A stretch of DNA of 57,458 bases. Source: Mizuhopecten yessoensis (Eukaryota). The DNA is taken from positions 1,552,834 to 1,610,291 of the forward strand of contig NW_018407733.1 in assembly GCF_002113885.1 (NCBI RefSeq). The letters run 5' to 3'. A program made the position numbers. Below, one piece after another: positions 9,001-51,000 of the stretch. Positions within the stretch are counted from its first letter, which is position 1, and each line of letters opens with the position of its first letter.

Positions 9001-12000
9001 TCCGGACTAGGGCTTCAAGCAGCTGTTGAAAACAATGTATTTCCTTTCAAGGATTGTATTTTGTCCACTCAGTCTGGCCAGTAGAAATACACAGGAGTAT
9101 TTGTTTAAGCTAAAAGTTCAATATTTACCTTCCTTAATCAGTATAGCCTATATATAATTTGTTAAGCCGATATGAATTATATGTTTATTTTTCAACAAGA
9201 AAAGATTTAAACAAAAGACTGGCGTTCGTTTGATTCATCTGCTTTTTTAATACTTCGTTATGTTTCCGACTTACCGACATTTCGATGTGCGTGCCACGTT
9301 ACGACGGAAGGTAGTATAGCTTATTGCATTTTCCTTCATTGCACGTTTTTCAGGTGGGAACTTTGCATATGTATATATACATAGCCCCCAGGGTTAGCCG
9401 GGTATACACTTCGTATATACCGTCCTCAGAGGTCCTACCGCGTGTAAACAGACATTAGTTTCCAGTCTTATTAAGCGAGGCGTAACGTATAGCAAGTACT
9501 GTATACATGTAGGGCGTCGGGTGTCGTGTAACAGTCATTCTATGTTGGCTGTGCAGAACAGGTGTACTTTCTATCAAACTATGGGACTACTGAGAAGAGT
9601 GTTCTGGACACGAAACACAAAATGGCAGGAAAAGGTATTTATTCTCACTGTCGTTATGGTAGTCTGTGTAACAGGAATGATCAATCTGAGACCGCATTAC
9701 TTTGTGAGGCAGATGGAACACAAACACAACTCTCGCAATGTCATTATAACGAAGAAAATAATGTCAGATTATAATTATGTATCGGAGGATTTTCATTCAA
9801 AAATATTTAATTCAAGTTATTGTTTAGACATCTCGAAATCGCCGACAAGGACAAACTTAAATGTTGGTTTTGATAGAACCAAAAACCGGCTACATCCCAT
9901 CAGATACTTTCCGCCGGAAGTTAACATTAGCGAATCGGAGAAACAACGTATTTCGCGCCTACTTCCGGACGATTTCCTCCATACGAATGCTTCGTCAGAT
10001 CGAGTTTACGAACAATTAGAATATGTGCCGAGAACTTACTCCAGTAAATCGGATATCAAAGTTGTGTATATTTGGCACATGGAAAAATGGACAAACGTTC
10101 CCACGGGATTAGAATTCTTCAAGCACTGCAAGGTGAACCGCTGTAGTTTAACCCACGAGAGAAGTGCGGAGGCCACGGCTGATGCTGTTGTGTTTGCTAA
10201 TTCTGGATATCTACCGTTATCACCACCTTTTCAAAAATCATCTTCTAAACAAATTGCCATTTTAAACATCAATGAGAGTCCAGATAGATCGTGGCCAATG
10301 AATAACTATAAAAACTTTTTCAATTGGACAAACACGTATCGAGTAGACTCGACAATTTATGATCCCTATTTCAAAATTGGACGGAATTGTTGGACGCCTC
10401 CTGATATCCCGACCCCAGGTCGCAATTTCGCCGAGGGCCGGACCAAAAAGGTCGCTTGGATGGTTTCTAACTGCAATATTGTAAAGAGTGGACGTATGGA
10501 GTATGCAAGGGAACTGGGTAAACACGTGCAAGTGGACATTTACGGGCACTGTGGTCCACTGTCTTGTCCAGCGTCCAAACACAGAGAATGCGTCGAAATG
10601 ACCAGGAGGGACTACAAGTTCTACCTGTCGTTTGAGAACCACAAATGCCACGACTATTTGACGGAGAAAGTGATGAACGCTTACGAGTAAGTTTTTATAA
10701 AGCAATCATTCCTCTCCTGTTCACTTTCTGTCATAAGAAAGAGGCATTTTATCGAAAATTATGCTTTTCATATGCTTAAGAATTGTCTTCCTAGTGTTTA
10801 AACGTTTGATATTCAAAGTTCATACATGTACTTTATACACATGAATACAGACAGACAGCATACACACAAACACACATCATTCATTTTATGTCGAAATCCC
10901 GACTTGAACCCTTACTTAGTTCATATATTTTACATACAAAGAAATAACAGAAAAATAATAATGGTGACAACCGATACTATCATAAAGGACTGCCCAGAAA
11001 TGAGTTATATCTATGTCAATATTTTAAAGCTCACCGACAATGATACAGCTGTTCATTTAAGACCTCTATTTTTGGCAAAATTGTCACCAGAAAGGTATCA
11101 TGAATCGATGTTCGTTTCAGGACGCGGTTGTTGCCACGTGTGTTCGTGAACATGTGATTTTGTTTACAAAGGGACCAGTTTGTTTATGTGGAACACCCGG
11201 TTGTCTGTTTTTAAATCTAATATTCCCTGGGCAAGGCTCGCATGTAAGCAGCATCCGGATGTTGTTACAGTTTCATGATGTTCATGGATGTTACAACATC
11301 AAGGAGAACTAAACTATAAAACCATCTTGTGAATATTTTCATGTTTAAACAAACTCTTTGGCTAAACCATCACCAAAGTCGTATCCGTATTATCTAAATA
11401 ACAATAATACATATATACATGTGGCGACGTGAAAAACAACATCCACAGCTGTCTGTATATGGTGACATTTAGTCGTTAATGTTAATATTAATGCGAACAC
11501 TACGTCAGTTGCTATCTCATAGTTCACTCTGTCTCATTGTTCACACTGTCTCATTGTTCACCCTGTCTCATTGTTCACTCTGTCACATTGTTTACTCTGT
11601 CTCTTTGTTCTCTCTGTCTCATTGTTCACCCTGTCTCATTGTTCACTCTGTCTCATTGTTCACTCTGTCTCTTTGTTCACTCTGTCTCATTGTTCACTCT
11701 GTCACTTTGTTCACTCTGTCTCATTGTTCACTCTGTCTCTTTGTTCTCTCTGTCTCATTGTTCACCCTGTCTCATTGTTCACTCTGTCTCACTCCATCTC
11801 ATTGTTCACTCTGTCTAAGTCTGTCACATTATTCACTCTGTCTCAGTGTTTACACTGTCTCATTGTTCACTCTGTATCATTGTTCATTCTGTCTCTTTGT
11901 TCACTCTGTCTCATTGTTCACTCTGTCTCATTGTTCACTCTGTTTCATTGTTCACTCTGTCTCTTTGTTAACACTGTCTCATTGTTCACTCTGTCTCATT

Positions 12001-48000: not shown

Positions 48001-51000
48001 TGCATGTAAAATATATGAACTAAGTAAGGGTTCAAGTCGGGATTTCGACATAAAATGAATGATGTGTGTTTGTGTGTATGCTGTCTGTCTGTATTCATGT
48101 GTATAAAGTATATGTATATGTAAGAACTTTAAATATCAAACGTTTAAACACTAGGAAGACTATTCTTAAGCATATGAAAAGCATAATTTTCGATAAAAGG
48201 CCTCTTTCTTATGACAGAAAGTGAACATGAGAGGAATGATTGTTTTATAAAAACTTACTCGTAAGCGTTCATCACTTTCTCCGTCAAATAGTCGTGGCAT
48301 TTGTGGTTCTCAAACGACAGGTAGAACTTGTAGTCCCTCCTGGTCATTTCGACGCATTCTTTGTGTTTGGACGCTGGACAAGACAGTGGACCACAGTGCC
48401 CGTAAATGTCCACTTGCACGTGTTTACCCAGTTCTCTTGCATACTCCATACGTCCACTCTTTACAATATTGCAGTTAGAAACCATCCAAGCGACCTTTTT
48501 GGTCCGGCCCTCGGCGAAATTGCGACCTGGGGTCGGGATATCAGGAGGCGTCCAACAATTCCGTCCAATTTTGAAATAGGGATCATAAATTGTAGAGTCT
48601 ACTCTATACGTGTTTGTCCAGTTGAAAAAGTTTTTATAGTTATTCATTGGCCACGATCTATCTGGACTCTCATTGATGTTTAAAATTGCAATTTGTTTAG
48701 AAGATGATTTTTGAAAAGGTGGTGATAACGGTAGAAATCCAGAATTAGCAAACACAACAGCATCAGCCGTGGCCTCCGCACTTCTCTCGTGGGTTAAACT
48801 ACAGCGGTTCACCTTGCAGTGCTTGAAGAATTCTAATCCCGTGGGAACGTTTGTCCATTTTTCCATGTGCCAAATATACACAACTTTGATATCCGATTTA
48901 CTGGAGTAAGTTCTCGGCACATATTCTAATTGTTCGTAAACTCGATCTGACGGAGCATTCGTATGGAGGAAATCGTCCGGAAGTAGGCGCAAAATACGTT
49001 GTTTCTCCGATTCGCTAATGTTAACTTCCGGCGGAAAGTATCTGATGGGATGTAGCCGGTTTTTGGTTCTATCAAAACCAACATTTAAGTTTGTCCTTGT
49101 CGGCGATTTCGAGATGTCTAAACAATAACTTGAATTAAATATTTTTGAATGAAAATCCTCCGATACATAATTATAATCTGACGTTATTTTCTTCGTTATA
49201 ATGACATTGCGAGAGTTGTGTTTGTGTTCCATCTGCCTCACAAAGTAATGCGGTCTCAGATTGATCATTCCTGTTACACAGACTACCATAACGACAGTGA
49301 GAATAAATACCTTTTCCTGCCATTTTGTGTTTCGTGTCCAGAACACTCTTCTCAGTAGTCCCATAGTTTGATAGAAAGTACACCTGTTCTGCACATTCAC
49401 AAATACAGGGAACTCGTTTAGCCAACATAGAATGACTGTTACACGACTCCCGACGCCCTACATGTATACAGTACTTACTATACGTTACGCCTCGCTTAAT
49501 AAGACAGTGAACTAATGTCTGTTTACACGCGGTAGGACCTCTGAGGACGGTATATACGAAGTGTGTACCCGGCTAACCCTGGGGGGCTATGTATATGTAT
49601 ATATACATATGCAAAGTTCCTGCCTGCAAAACGTGCAATGAAGGAAGTTGCAAATTAGCTACCTTCCGTCGTAACGTGGCACGCACATCGAAACGTCGAT
49701 TAGTCGGAACATAACGAAGAATTAAAAAAGCAGATGAAACAAACGAACGCCAGTATATTATTTAAATCTTTTCTTGTTGAAAAATAAACATATAATTCAT
49801 ATCGGCTTAACAAATTATATTTGAACTCCGGAAATTTGAGCATTATAAATAGGCTATACTGATTAAGGAAGGTAAATCTTGAACTTTTAGCTTAAACAAA
49901 TACTCATGTGTATTTCTACTTGCCAGACTGAGTGGACAAAATACAATCCTTGAAAGGAAATACATTGTTTTCAATAGCTGCTTGAAGCCCCGGTCCGGAC
50001 ATAAGTTGGTAGAGTTATATCTATGGATACTCTCGTTAGCGAGGAAACAATAGGTTGTGTATTCATAGAATCCATCGCTGATGTGAGGTATGAATACGGT
50101 TATTCAAACCCAAGGGATAAAATATTGAGCAGGAGACCCGAGGCTTTGCTTTAAGTTCATCTTTAACTTTAGATGAGTGTTTGATGGAACCTTGTTAGTC
50201 CGGACATTTTATGATGTATGTTTGCTGGAACCTTGTTAGTCCGGACGCTTTATGATGTATGTTTGATGGACCCTTGTTAGTCCTGACACTTTATGATGTA
50301 TGTTTGATGGAACCTTGTTAGTCCGGACATTTTATGATGTATGTTTGATGGAACCTTGTTAGTCCGGACACTTTTACTTATTAAAGTATTAGAACCTCGA
50401 CATTGCGGATATGTTGAATGTCTGTGAGTAGAACCTTGACAGTCAGGACACTGGTCTGCGTTCAGAGCAAAACTTGTATAGTGTGAACACTTTGTGTACA
50501 ACGGGTCTTTGATAGTCCAGACAATCTTTGATGGGTCCCTCGTTAGTCCAGACATTTGAATTTGTGAAGTGAAACTTCGATAATCTGGACACTTTGGTTT
50601 TACATATCGGAAGACTTCTCGCTAGGAGGAGCAAAGCGTATATTGGGGAAAGGGATGAGGGGAGGTAACGTGCGTGTGTGTGTGGGGGGGGGGGGGAAAT
50701 TTTGTTTAACGTCCTTTTAACAGCTAAGGTCATTTAAGGACCTGCCTCCATGTGACTTTATAGTGCTATATCACTGAAATACCATGCCGAAGGAACCCAG
50801 CACAGCATTCCGCCCGGTCACATTATACTGACAACGGGTGAAGCAGTTGTTGTCATTCCCTAAATGCTGAACGTTAAGCAGGAAATAACAACTACCATTT
50901 TTAAGGACTTTGGTATGTCCCGGCCAGGGGACAGAGCCCATTACCTTCCTCACATGGGCGAACGCTCAACATTAAGGCCAAAAGTGAGGTGTTGCCAAGC

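What the first reader, a model, noticed from the sequence alone, without database searches (positions are those of the whole stretch)
9581..49364. Exons nearly identical between arms while non-coding DNA is heavily diverged: gene conversion or strong selection
Seen: A1/A2 differ at 8 of 475 aa and B1/B2 at 7 of 521 aa; in B exon 2 I could see only two synonymous changes. By eye, adjacent non-coding DNA (e.g. 29050-30500 vs 39360-41460) has many more substitutions and indels plus arm-specific TE insertions. If synonymous divergence is well below flank divergence, arm-to-arm gene conversion is implied, as known for sex-chromosome palindromes.
Basis: partly seen in the sequence, partly recalled or inferred. 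Interest (0 to 1): 0.65.

Follow-up and report, generated by a model that had tools for sequence, protein, structure and literature searches.

The report
Scallop inverted duplication of fucosyltransferase genes
Two mirror-image copies of a pair of sugar-transferase genes in a scallop genome have kept their coding parts alike mainly through ordinary purifying selection, probably helped by occasional patchy copying between the copies; it is a fairly ordinary young gene duplication.

Summary
The window, assigned to Yesso scallop by named protein hits and not human, contains an inverted duplication. The left arm is about 6272-31014, the right arm about 53705-38458, and the spacer is about 7.4 kb. 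Each arm carries two two-exon GT10 alpha-1,3-fucosyltransferase genes. A1/A2 differ at 8 of 475 residues and B1/B2 at 7 of 521. Exons differ at 33 of 2994 bases with no indels. Aligned non-coding DNA differs at 341 of 5789 bases (5.9%), and 44 indel events lie in the 4646 aligned non-coding bases of L 8851-30895.

- Purifying selection is shown: dN/dS is 0.25 (p=2.4e-4), with 0 indels against 28 expected.
- Overall dS (2.6%) is below gene-adjacent (4.6%) and distal (5.0%) non-coding divergence and the 10% block. It does not differ from exon-proximal (3.4%) or indel-free (3.6%) non-coding DNA.
- Synonymous differences are themselves patchy. There are almost none in the 5' or middle parts of exon 1, which are the parts least conserved between species. 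The 3' parts show 6-10% (permutation p=0.016 in each gene).

That mosaic favours old, short, patchy arm-to-arm conversion on an older duplication. This is not the arm-wide >99% homogenisation of sex-chromosome palindromes, since substitution identity here is 95.3%. Allelic misassembly is unlikely but not excluded.

The parts
6272..31014 (+). Left arm of the inverted duplication (24.7 kb; only 9876 bases align to the other arm)
   Evidence: Colinear chain of 13 minus-strand BLAST HSPs. Outer and inner limits come: the last weak matches are 6272-6320 and 30967-31014.
38458..53705 (-). Right arm (15.2 kb including a 514-N gap at 51607-52120; 9951 bases align)
31015..38457 (.). Unique spacer of about 7.4 kb. 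It has no inverted self-homology beyond the arm ends and holds a tandem repeat of about 549 bp at 36375-38128.
   Evidence: The 8 spacer ORFs of 110 aa or more have no Pfam hit (0 of 8).
9581..10686 (+). Gene A1 exon 1 (368 codons + 2 bases): GT10 fucosyltransferase, N-terminal anchor, stem, N domain and first half of the C domain
   Evidence: Pfam PF17039 8.2e-17 and PF00852 4.9e-27; GT donor
25368..25689 (+). Gene A1 exon 2 (1 base + 106 codons + stop TAA)
   Evidence: PF00852 profile positions 83-182, 5.2e-26; AG acceptor
26143..27377 (+). Gene B1 exon 1 (411 codons + 2 bases)
   Evidence: PF17039 4.1e-20, PF00852 8e-26
28423..28753 (+). Gene B1 exon 2 (1 base + 109 codons + stop)
   Evidence: PF00852 6.2e-28
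48259..49364 (-). Gene A2 exon 1
   Evidence: Its translation is an exact substring of database protein P0001, residues 1-368.
44455..44776 (-). Gene A2 exon 2 (stop TGA)
   Evidence: Exact substring of P0001 from residue 370. The stop codon difference is seen.
42777..44011 (-). Gene B2 exon 1
   Evidence: Exact substring of P0088, residues 1-411
41764..42094 (-). Gene B2 exon 2
   Evidence: Exact substring of P0088 from residue 413
9551..10255 (+). Candidate younger (converted) patch in A, partner R 48690-49394. It has 0 synonymous differences in 144.3 synonymous sites and 4 replacement differences.
   Evidence: Change-point after codon 225, permutation p=0.0156; identical runs of 211, 191 and 216 bp
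10256..10684 (+). Older part of A exon 1, partner R 48261-48689. pS = 5/85.5 = 5.9% and pN = 1/343.5.
   Evidence: This is the part most conserved between species (84-89% aa identity).
26557..27008 (+). 452-bp stretch identical between the arms in B exon 1 (codons 139-288), partner R 43146-43597: candidate most recent conversion tract
   Evidence: Longest identical run in the arms. P=0.011 for 16 differences placed uniformly, 0.043 after x4 correction. Between-species aa identity is only 67-71% here.
27007..27375 (+). Older part of B exon 1, partner R 42779-43147. pS = 7/73.2 = 9.6% and pN = 1/295.8.
   Evidence: 80-81% aa identity between species
29075..30570 (+). High-divergence non-coding block, partner roughly R 38915-41447. 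138 of 1380 aligned bases differ (10.0%), it is indel-rich, and it is not made of tandem repeats.
   Evidence: Binary segmentation; TRF finds only short arrays; 11.5% remains after dropping columns within 5 bp of gaps
11515..14663 (+). 17-bp satellite in the A1 intron, 186 copies. The right arm has 52 copies at 46762-47649.
14800..24938 (+). Left-arm-only 10.1 kb inside the A1 intron, making that intron 14681 bp against 3482 bp in A2. It is either an insertion or a right-arm deletion, and a TE nature is not shown.
27888..28480 (+). Assembly join. The single N at 28184 is flanked by a 296-bp 100% direct duplicate (27888-28183 = 28185-28480). This inflates the B1 intron by 297 bp and duplicates the first 58 bp of exon 2.
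38992..39250 (+). Assembly join. The single N at 39121 is flanked by a 129-bp 99.2% direct duplicate.

Best explanation
This is a genuine inverted segmental duplication in the Yesso scallop genome. It is a small palindrome with a spacer of about 7.4 kb, and it copied an older tandem pair of GT10 alpha-1,3-fucosyltransferase genes (A then B, tail-to-tail across the spacer). All four copies are intact.

The exon versus non-coding contrast has two causes.

(1) Shown: purifying selection removes about three quarters of replacement changes and every indel from the exons. The surrounding DNA accumulates substitutions, indels, satellite length changes and a 10-kb length difference.

(2) Inferred: the arms have exchanged short patches (about 0.3-1.5 kb) by non-crossover gene conversion after the duplication. 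Silent divergence is therefore a mosaic. Young patches show 0-2.6% and include the 5' or middle parts of exon 1 of both genes and the exon 2 regions. Old patches show 6-10% and include the 3' third of exon 1 in both genes, the 1.5-kb block and stretches next to structural differences.

Conversion needs uninterrupted similarity. It would therefore be confined more and more to the indel-free, selection-conserved exons and their immediate flanks. It would be blocked near indels, unequal satellites and the large insertion.

This exchange is rare and old compared with sex-chromosome palindromes. Even the exons differ by 1.1%, and each arm carries its own derived replacements.
For: Structure:
- Colinear inverted chain of 13 HSPs.
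- Contig 28185-39120 carries the left arm's end, the spacer and the right arm's inner end.
- The 296-bp 100% and 129-bp 99.2% overlaps at the single-N joins tie the three contigs together.
- Homology stops at both arm ends.

Genes:
- Pfam GT10 N and C domains are found in all pieces.
- P0001 and P0088, named Mizuhopecten yessoensis proteins, equal the A2 and B2 exons exactly.

Selection:
- dN 0.0066, dS 0.0268, ratio 0.25, Fisher p=2.4e-4.
- 0 exon indels against 28.4 expected, P=5e-13.

Mosaic:
- A two-rate HMM (2.6% and 9.0%) beats one rate by 2dLL=44. The low state covers every exon plus 100-300 bp of flank, and also exon-free stretches.
- Segmentation isolates a 10% block.
- Over-dispersion remains without the block (p=0.016 with 100-site bins, 0.0014 with 200-site bins).

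Synonymous clustering:
- A exon 1: 0/144.3 against 5/85.5.
- B exon 1: 2/93.3, 0/100.0 and 7/73.2.
- Change-point permutation p=0.0156 and 0.0164; joint KS p=0.0013.

Not explained by constraint: the arm-identical parts are the less conserved between species (57-73% and 67-71% aa identity). The high-dS parts are more conserved (80-89%).

Not explained by CpG content or strong codon bias: CpG o/e is about 1 in all exon-1 segments and ENC is 56.

Both arms carry derived replacements when read against three outgroup scallops. For A the split is 2 on A1, 3 on A2 and 3 unresolved. For B it is 1 on B1 and 6 on B2 (my reading of the alignments).
Against: - The conversion part rests on few events: 14 synonymous differences in the two exon 1s.
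- I chose the synonymous clustering test after seeing the list of differences.
- Only the within-exon scan is corrected by permutation.
- Both genes show the same 5'-low, 3'-high pattern. That could point to a systematic cause tied to gene structure rather than to independent tracts.
- Non-coding substitution rate falls steadily with distance from the nearest indel: 8.4% at 1-5 columns and 1.4% (3/215) beyond 200. An indel-linked mutation effect, or joint variation of constraint, would also give this.
- Once matched for distance from indels or from exons, overall dS is not significantly below non-coding divergence.
- Non-coding DNA alone, without the block, is not significantly over-dispersed (p=0.105).
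- There are no outgroup nucleotide sequences, population data or reads, so no tract is demonstrated directly.
Confidence: 0.5

Rival explanations
1. There has been no exchange between the arms. A single duplication was followed by independent divergence. Exons are conserved by purifying selection alone. The silent-site mosaic comes from local mutation-rate differences (substitutions elevated around indels and repeats), constraint on exon-proximal non-coding DNA, and sampling noise in a handful of synonymous differences.
For: - dN/dS is 0.25 and exons have no indels.
- Overall dS does not differ from non-coding DNA within 200 bp of exons (p=0.34-0.50) or more than 100 columns from indels (p=0.39).
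- Substitution rate shows a monotonic decline with distance from indels.
- Non-coding DNA alone, without the block, is not over-dispersed (p=0.105).
- Each arm has its own derived replacements.
Against: - The two scan-corrected p values of 0.016 and the joint KS p of 0.0013 would have to be chance.
- Alternatively, synonymous sites would be constrained precisely in the protein parts that evolve fastest between species.
- In gene A the silent-free part lies nearest an upstream indel, which is opposite to the indel-proximity prediction.
- Codon bias is weak (ENC 56).
- CpG content does not differ in the right direction.
- The 10% block is not repeat-rich, so its two-fold excess over other distal DNA (p=1e-7) needs a separate cause.
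Confidence: 0.33
2. The two arms are the two haplotypes (alleles) of one locus. A short-read assembly of a heterozygous bivalve failed to collapse them and joined them in inverted order. The mosaic would then be ordinary allelic recombination history.
For: - The window is stitched from at least four contigs, with unmerged overlaps at single-N joins and a 514-N gap.
- A mosaic of near-zero and about 9% silent divergence is what alleles of a very polymorphic species can show.
- Bivalve genomes are described as exceptionally heterozygous (PMC5700196, passages seen).
- Only one B-type and one A-type cluster exist per species in the protein search.
Against: - Homology ends at both ends of the arms. 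The left flank 1-6271 has no counterpart in 53706-57458, and the spacer halves are not mirror images. Alleles would require two coincident breaks.
- The contig 28185-39120 itself carries the left-arm end, the spacer and the inverted right-arm end.
- Colinearity continues across the 39121 join.
- Non-coding divergence of 5.9% plus many indels is about seven times the 0.81% intra-individual polymorphism reported for another scallop (PMC5700196). That is a different species, so the comparison is only a guide.
Confidence: 0.08
3. This is a sex-chromosome-style palindrome whose arms are kept homogeneous by frequent, ongoing arm-wide gene conversion.
For: Inverted arms longer than 10 kb around a unique spacer, with intact gene copies in both arms.
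Against: - Arm identity is 95.3% counting substitutions only and 91.5% with gaps. Only 9876 of 24743 left-arm bases and 9951 of 15248 right-arm bases align.
- The introns differ by 11 kb in length.
- Satellites differ 186 against 52 copies.
- The family is defined by more than 99% arm identity (starts of abstracts of PMC8981503, PMC3723533 and bioRxiv 10.1101/800185, seen in the listing).
Confidence: 0.02

Closest known systems
Large palindromes of mammalian Y and X chromosomes (human P1-P8, primate and mouse X palindromes), with arm-to-arm gene conversion
   Same: Inverted arms longer than 10 kb around a unique spacer; protein-coding genes present and intact in both arms; intrachromosomal exchange between arms is the proposed homogenising mechanism.
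   Different: Those arms are more than 99% to more than 99.9% identical across coding and non-coding DNA (starts of abstracts in the listing). Here the alignable part is 95.3% identical, less than two thirds of either arm aligns, and any exchange is patchy and old. Sex linkage and germline expression are unknown here.
Young inverted or tandem gene duplicates with conversion limited to coding regions (globin, opsin and CGB type cases; surveys of recent duplicates in C. elegans and human)
   Same: Paralogues whose exons stay more alike than their flanks; mosaic silent divergence; conversion restricted to stretches that stay similar.
   Different: I recall these cases from memory. PMC3213168, PMC2478647 and PMC4546093 were seen only as search listings with the starts of their abstracts. 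In those cases conversion was shown with outgroups or population data, which are lacking here.
GT10 alpha-1,3-fucosyltransferases annotated 'glycoprotein 3-alpha-L-fucosyltransferase A-like' in pectinid scallops
   Same: Both Pfam GT10 domains are present. Orthologues of A (68-78% identity over exon 1) and B (66-70%) occur in Pecten maximus, Ylistrum balloti and Argopecten irradians. The A and B orthologues of each species list a longest contig of the same length.
   Different: In the other three species each gene appears as one 90% cluster. An inverted second copy of both genes is seen only here.

Membership tests
GT10 alpha-1,3/4-fucosyltransferase | Pfam Glyco_tran_10_N (PF17039) and Glyco_transf_10 (PF00852) above their gathering scores | tested here: met
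   Exon 1 of A scores 62.1 and 95.2 bits and exon 1 of B scores 72.7 and 91.2 bits (cut-offs 28.7 and 23.9). The exon 2 pieces continue PF00852 from profile positions 78/83 to 182 (91.8 and 98.1 bits).
GT10 alpha-1,3/4-fucosyltransferase | Conserved alpha-1,3-FucT motif in the catalytic domain (the motif definition is recalled, not from a call) | tested here: met
   The stretches YKFYLSFENHKCHDYLTEK (A) and YKFYLAFENTKCLDYVTEK (B) are read directly in the translations. They are unchanged in the three outgroup species.
GT10 alpha-1,3/4-fucosyltransferase | Type II membrane topology and fucosyltransferase activity with a defined acceptor | not testable with these tools
   A hydrophobic N-terminal segment is visible in the translations. 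No topology predictor or assay was run.
Sex-chromosome-type large palindrome kept by arm-to-arm conversion | Inverted arms longer than 10 kb around a unique spacer | tested here: met
   Arms of 24.7 and 15.2 kb with a spacer of about 7.4 kb
Sex-chromosome-type large palindrome kept by arm-to-arm conversion | Arm-to-arm nucleotide identity above 99% including non-coding DNA | tested here: not met
   95.3% counting substitutions only and 91.5% with gap columns; 341 of 5789 aligned non-coding bases differ
Sex-chromosome-type large palindrome kept by arm-to-arm conversion | Arms more alike within a species than orthologous arms between species (concerted evolution) | not testable with these tools
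   No eukaryotic genome collection is available.
Paralogues with patchy gene conversion | Silent divergence significantly heterogeneous along the pair, in a way not explained by constraint | tested here: met
   HMM 2dLL=44. Synonymous change-points p=0.0156 and 0.0164, KS p=0.0013. The low-divergence parts are the less conserved between species.
Paralogues with patchy gene conversion | Tracts shown by outgroup phylogeny, GENECONV on three or more sequences, or polymorphisms shared between the copies | not testable with these tools
   Only two nucleotide sequences exist here. GENECONV is not installed and has no informative sites with two sequences.
Uncollapsed haplotypes (assembly artefact) | Homology continues into the flanks on both sides of the two copies | tested here: not met
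   No match between 1-6271 and 53706-57458, or between the spacer halves beyond the arm ends
Uncollapsed haplotypes (assembly artefact) | Half read depth on each copy | not testable with these tools
   No reads are available.

The most novel reading that the evidence does not exclude
The palindrome is a functional device, not just a decaying duplicate. Exon-anchored arm-to-arm conversion, still occurring at a low rate, would keep two working copies of both fucosyltransferase genes in a bivalve. It might sit in a low-recombination or sex-associated region. A 'glycoprotein 3-alpha-L-fucosyltransferase A' gene is reported as a female-biased hub gene in Yesso scallop gonads (PMC6708199, passages seen), but its identity with these genes is unknown. 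This would be an invertebrate, possibly autosomal, parallel to mammalian sex-chromosome palindromes.
Probability: 0.1. Interest if true: 0.6.

Novelty: new member of a known kind. Interest (0 to 1): 0.3.

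Why it matters
The finding is modest. It documents a lineage-restricted inverted duplication of a fucosyltransferase gene pair in a commercially important scallop.

It also works as a case study. 'Exons identical, flanks diverged' does not by itself imply gene conversion. About 60% of the contrast on a log scale is plain purifying selection, and the mean dS is no lower than nearby indel-free non-coding DNA.

The informative signal is the patchiness of synonymous divergence within exons. If the patchy-conversion reading is confirmed, the locus would be a small and tractable example of conversion becoming confined to selection-conserved exons as a palindrome ages.

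The report also flags two assembly joins with unmerged overlaps. One of them distorts the B1 gene model.

Tried and rejected
- **Global MAFFT alignment of the arms.** It forced non-homologous DNA and the artefactual 297-bp duplicate into alignment and inflated divergence. For example it gave 7.9% for the B intron and 20.9% for the outer arm. I replaced it with a colinear chain of local BLAST alignments, with the duplicates next to the single Ns masked.
It is not installed, and with two sequences it has no informative sites. I substituted segmentation, an HMM, a dispersion test, a longest-run test and a synonymous change-point permutation.
- **YN00.** It failed on 2 of 4 exons (division by zero) and gave an erratic 0.084 for A exon 2. 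NG86, LWL85 and ML agree on dS of 0.007-0.042 per exon.
- **CpG hypermutability** as the cause of the synonymous clustering: rejected.
- **Strong codon-usage selection:** unlikely, with ENC 56.2 and 56.3.
- **Tandem repeats** as the cause of the 10% block: rejected.
- **TE identification of arm-specific DNA.** Pfam found nothing in 13 of 13 ORFs. Among 8 further ORFs there were only sub-threshold or minisatellite-translation hits. There are no LTR or TIR pairs, no Rfam family and no tRNA.
Whether that species has two A copies stays unchecked.
- **Literature.** Searches for 'fucosyltransferase' + 'scallop' (26 papers) and 'palindrome' + 'gene conversion' + 'scallop' (3 papers, none relevant) found no description of this locus. 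The original Yesso scallop genome paper is not in the library.

Full report
**What is there**

The window is 57,458 bp with about 37% G+C. It has single Ns at 28184 and 39121 and a 514-N gap at 51607-52120.

It contains a large inverted repeat. A colinear chain of 13 minus-strand local alignments runs from L 6317 / R 53168 to L 31014 / R 38458. A last weak match at L 6272-6320 / R 53657-53705 extends it slightly. Beyond these points there is no homology. The left flank 1-6271 has no counterpart in 53706-57458, and the two halves of the spacer are not mirror images.

The arms are about 24.7 kb (left) and 15.2 kb (right), and the spacer is about 7.4 kb. Only 9876 left-arm bases and 9951 right-arm bases align. 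The rest is:
- a 17-bp satellite with 186 copies on the left against 52 on the right;
- a 41-bp minisatellite with 17 copies against 4.8;
- a 10.1-kb left-only stretch;
- several right-only insertions of 240-400 bp.

**Genes**

Each arm carries two two-exon genes pointing towards the spacer. Exon translations match both Pfam GT10 fucosyltransferase domains well above the curated cut-offs. The single intron is GT-AG, in phase 2, and splits the same position of the catalytic domain in A and B. A and B are therefore old tandem paralogues.

I built no joined coding sequence or protein, and the split codon was left out of all codon statistics. Two database proteins confirm the junctions. P0001 (475 aa) contains both A2 exon translations exactly, and P0088 (521 aa) contains both B2 exon translations exactly.

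Both proteins are named Mizuhopecten yessoensis 'glycoprotein 3-alpha-L-fucosyltransferase A-like' by NCBI. The contig is therefore scallop, not human.

The A exon 1 search gave 87 proteins with E<=0.001 among 524 candidates. The next-best hits after P0001 are single clusters:

| Species | A exon 1 identity | B exon 1 identity |
|---|---|---|
| Pecten maximus | 78% | 70% |
| Ylistrum balloti | 76% | 67% |
| Argopecten irradians | 68% | 66% |

Everything else in the A search is at or below 44%. The B exon 1 search gave 281 proteins at E<=1e-40 among 3019 candidates, with the same three species on top.

The A-B pair therefore predates these species, and the inverted second copy looks lineage-restricted.

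**Checking the observation**

A1/A2 differ at 8 of 475 aa, B1/B2 at 7 of 521, and B exon 2 has two differences, both synonymous.

Exons differ at 33 of 2994 bases with no indel. All aligned non-coding DNA outside the satellite differs at 341 of 5789 bases (5.9%). Forty-four indel events lie in the 4646 aligned non-coding bases of L 8851-30895.

The 'TE' label is not confirmed. No Pfam domain turned up in the 13 ORFs of 110 aa or more tested from the left-only stretch and the spacer (0 of 13). The 48-bp minisatellite ORF 15508-16479 gave only spurious hits. There are no terminal repeats, no Rfam family and no tRNA.

**An assembly point that matters for the numbers**

Each single N is a contig join with an unmerged overlap. 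27888-28183 is 100% identical to 28185-28480. 38992-39120 is 99.2% identical to 39122-39250.

The first overlap adds 297 spurious bases to the B1 intron and duplicates the first 58 bp of exon 2. My first global alignment was distorted by this and by forced alignment of unrelated DNA. All figures below therefore come from the local chain, with one copy of each overlap masked. No N was filled.

The overlaps also help on the structural question. The middle contig (28185-39120) is tied to the left arm by 296 identical bases in a stretch where the arms differ by about 2-5%. That contig itself carries the spacer and the inverted inner end of the right arm. Colinearity with the left arm continues across the 39121 join.

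**Selection**

Nei-Gojobori counts summed over the four exon pairs give Sd 16.5 of 627.5 synonymous sites and Nd 15.5 of 2354.5 non-synonymous sites. That is dS 0.027, dN 0.0066 and dN/dS 0.25, with Fisher p=2.4e-4. LWL85 and ML give similar dS per exon.

No indel event falls in the exons, against 28.4 expected at the non-coding density (P=5e-13).

Read against the three outgroup proteins, both arms carry their own derived replacements (my reading of the alignments):
- A: 2 on A1, 3 on A2, 3 unresolved.
- B: 1 on B1, 6 on B2.

Purifying selection on two independently evolving, intact copies is therefore shown.

The 4.15-fold contrast between exons and gene-adjacent non-coding DNA factors into 2.39-fold (exon mean against dS, which is selection) and 1.74-fold (dS against non-coding DNA).

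**Is dS below neutral flank divergence?**

It depends on which flank is used as the yardstick.

| Class | Differences | Rate |
|---|---|---|
| NG synonymous sites | 16.5/627.5 | 2.6% (95% CI 1.5-4.2%) |
| 4-fold sites | 7/389 | 1.8% |
| Gene-adjacent non-coding | 137/2996 | 4.6% |
| Non-coding more than 200 bp from exons, outside the block | 88/1763 | 5.0% |
| Block L 29075-30570 | 138/1380 | 10% |
| Non-coding within 200 bp of an exon | 51/1503 | 3.4% |
| Non-coding more than 100 columns from any indel or alignment break | 36/996 | 3.6% |

- Against gene-adjacent non-coding DNA, p=0.02 for dS and 0.007 for 4-fold sites.
- Against distal non-coding DNA, p=0.017 and 0.004.
- Against non-coding DNA within 200 bp of an exon, p=0.34-0.50 for dS and 0.14 for 4-fold sites.
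- Against non-coding DNA far from indels, p=0.39 and 0.086.

Non-coding divergence rises with distance from exons: 2.5-3.8% within 200 bp, 6.0-6.3% at 201-800 bp and 8.8% beyond. It falls with distance from indels: 8.4% at 1-5 columns and 1.4% (3/215) beyond 200.

The mean dS alone therefore does not 'imply' conversion. Exons sit inside low-divergence islands that extend 100-300 bp into introns and upstream DNA.

**The mosaic**

A two-rate HMM on 6178 silent sites (non-coding plus 4-fold) fits rates of 2.6% and 9.0%. It beats a single rate by 2dLL=44. The low state covers every exon with its near flanks, and also some exon-free stretches. Without the 10% block, over-dispersion remains for all silent sites (p=0.016 with 100-site bins, 0.0014 with 200-site bins). 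It does not remain for non-coding sites alone (p=0.105).

The most telling result is inside the exons.

| Segment | Synonymous differences | Replacement differences |
|---|---|---|
| A exon 1, codons 1-225 | 0 of 144.3 sites | 4 |
| A exon 1, codons 226-368 | 5 of 85.5 sites (5.9%) | 1 |
| B exon 1, codons 1-138 | 2 of 93.3 sites | 6 |
| B exon 1, codons 139-288 | 0 of 100.0 sites | 0 |
| B exon 1, codons 289-411 | 7 of 73.2 sites (9.6%) | 1 |

- Codons 139-288 of B show no difference of any kind over 452 bp. This is the longest identical run in the arms (P=0.011, or 0.043 after x4 correction).
- Change-point scans with permutation give p=0.0156 for A and 0.0164 for B. The 14 synonymous differences of the two exon 1s depart from uniformity with KS p=0.0013.

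The parts that are silent-free between the arms are the parts least conserved between species (57-73% and 67-71% aa identity). The parts with 6-10% dS are the most conserved (84-89% and 80-81%). Constraint therefore does not explain the pattern. Neither does CpG content (o/e about 1 in all exon-1 segments) or strong codon bias (ENC 56).

In the 'old' parts dS equals the high non-coding rate.

**Most likely mechanism**

Shown: a real inverted duplication, four intact GT10 genes, purifying selection and mosaic silent divergence.

Inferred:
- The duplication is older than the mean dS suggests, at roughly 6-10% silent divergence.
- Double-strand breaks in one arm have occasionally been repaired from the other arm. 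This left short non-crossover tracts (about 0.3-1.5 kb) that reset divergence locally.
- Such repair needs uninterrupted similarity and is impeded by heterology. Tracts would therefore survive in and around the indel-free, selection-conserved exons. They would be excluded near indels, unequal satellite arrays and the 10-kb length difference. This would produce both the distance-from-exon and the distance-from-indel gradients.

I give this combined reading about 0.5.

The main rival, at 0.33, is no exchange at all. In that reading indel-linked mutation, proximal constraint and chance in 14 synonymous events account for the mosaic. Both genes show the same 5'-low, 3'-high shape, which is a warning that a systematic cause is possible.

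Allelic misassembly (0.08) would also give a mosaic. It requires a chimeric contig plus two coincident homology breaks. The divergence is also about seven times the 0.81% intra-individual polymorphism reported for another scallop (PMC5700196, passages seen).

**Comparison with known systems**

Sex-chromosome palindromes are defined by more than 99% to more than 99.9% arm identity maintained by frequent conversion. I take this from the starts of the abstracts of PMC8981503, PMC3723533 and bioRxiv 10.1101/800185, seen in the listing. This locus fails that test, at 95.3% counting substitutions only and 91.5% with gaps. It may work like them in a weak and patchy way, but it is not a member of that class.

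It is closest to ordinary young inverted gene duplicates in which conversion is confined to coding stretches. That comparison is recalled from memory. The papers were seen only as listings.

I found no description of this locus. The searches were 'fucosyltransferase' + 'scallop' (26 papers, two read for passages) and 'palindrome' + 'gene conversion' + 'scallop' (3 irrelevant papers). Supplementary files were not consulted.

**Verdict**

- This is a new member of a known kind, of low to moderate interest.

The decisive tests all need data that these tools do not hold. They are read depth and long reads, the orthologous locus and nucleotide orthologues in other scallops, and population data.

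Noticed in passing
window 27888-28480 and 38992-39250: Both single Ns are contig joins with unmerged overlaps (296 bp at 100% identity, 129 bp at 99.2%). The first duplicates the acceptor and the first 58 bp of B1 exon 2. No database protein equals the B1 or A1 exon 1 translation exactly. The representative proteins shown equal the right-arm copies A2 and B2.
   Followed up: yes
window 25687-25689 vs 44455-44457: The two A copies end in different stop codons, TAA in A1 and TGA in A2.
   Followed up: no
window 42777-44011 (B2 exon 1): Six of the 7 B replacements appear derived on the right-arm copy B2 when read against three outgroup scallops. They include Gly to Arg directly before the conserved KTKKVAW stretch. 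This may reflect relaxed constraint on B2, but 6 against 1 is not significant.
   Followed up: partly
window 2339-4615 (+): A run of four consecutive ORFs (240, 182, 135 and 296 aa) in shifting frames has no Pfam hit. The first ORF resembles DUF6589 clusters in the ESM Atlas (score 0.94, 199 of 256 features shared). As far as I recall, that domain belongs to KDZ/Zisupton-type transposases. This looks like a decayed transposon in the left flank, and it is only a lead.
   Followed up: partly
window 30580-30805, 38683-38912, 45530-45720, 46219-46325: A short dispersed repeat lies at the inner end of both arms. It has two further partial copies (82-91% identity over 68-120 bp) in the right-arm A2 intron, matching in both orientations. 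It could be a MITE-like element, and it might have played a part in forming the duplication.
   Followed up: no
window 421-1158, 1787-1968, 15549-16221, 36375-38128, 45830-46213, 56620-57458: There are many further tandem arrays: a 37-bp array in the left flank, a 48-bp minisatellite in the left-only stretch, a repeat of about 549 bp in about 3 copies in the spacer, a 23-bp array in the A2 intron, and 34/57/125-bp arrays at the right end of the window.
   Followed up: no
window 4431-4544 / 5477-5577 and 19422-19621: A repeat of about 200 bp is shared (82-90% identity) between the left flank and the left-only 10-kb stretch. It is the only hint that the stretch holds dispersed repetitive DNA.
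   Followed up: no
literature, not the window: A gene annotated 'glycoprotein 3-alpha-L-fucosyltransferase A' (ncbi_110456621) is reported as a female-biased hub gene in Yesso scallop gonads (PMC6708199, passages). A transcript with the same annotation is up-regulated in the mantle of Polydora-infested scallops (PMC6281612, passages). Whether either is one of the four genes here is unknown.
   Followed up: no
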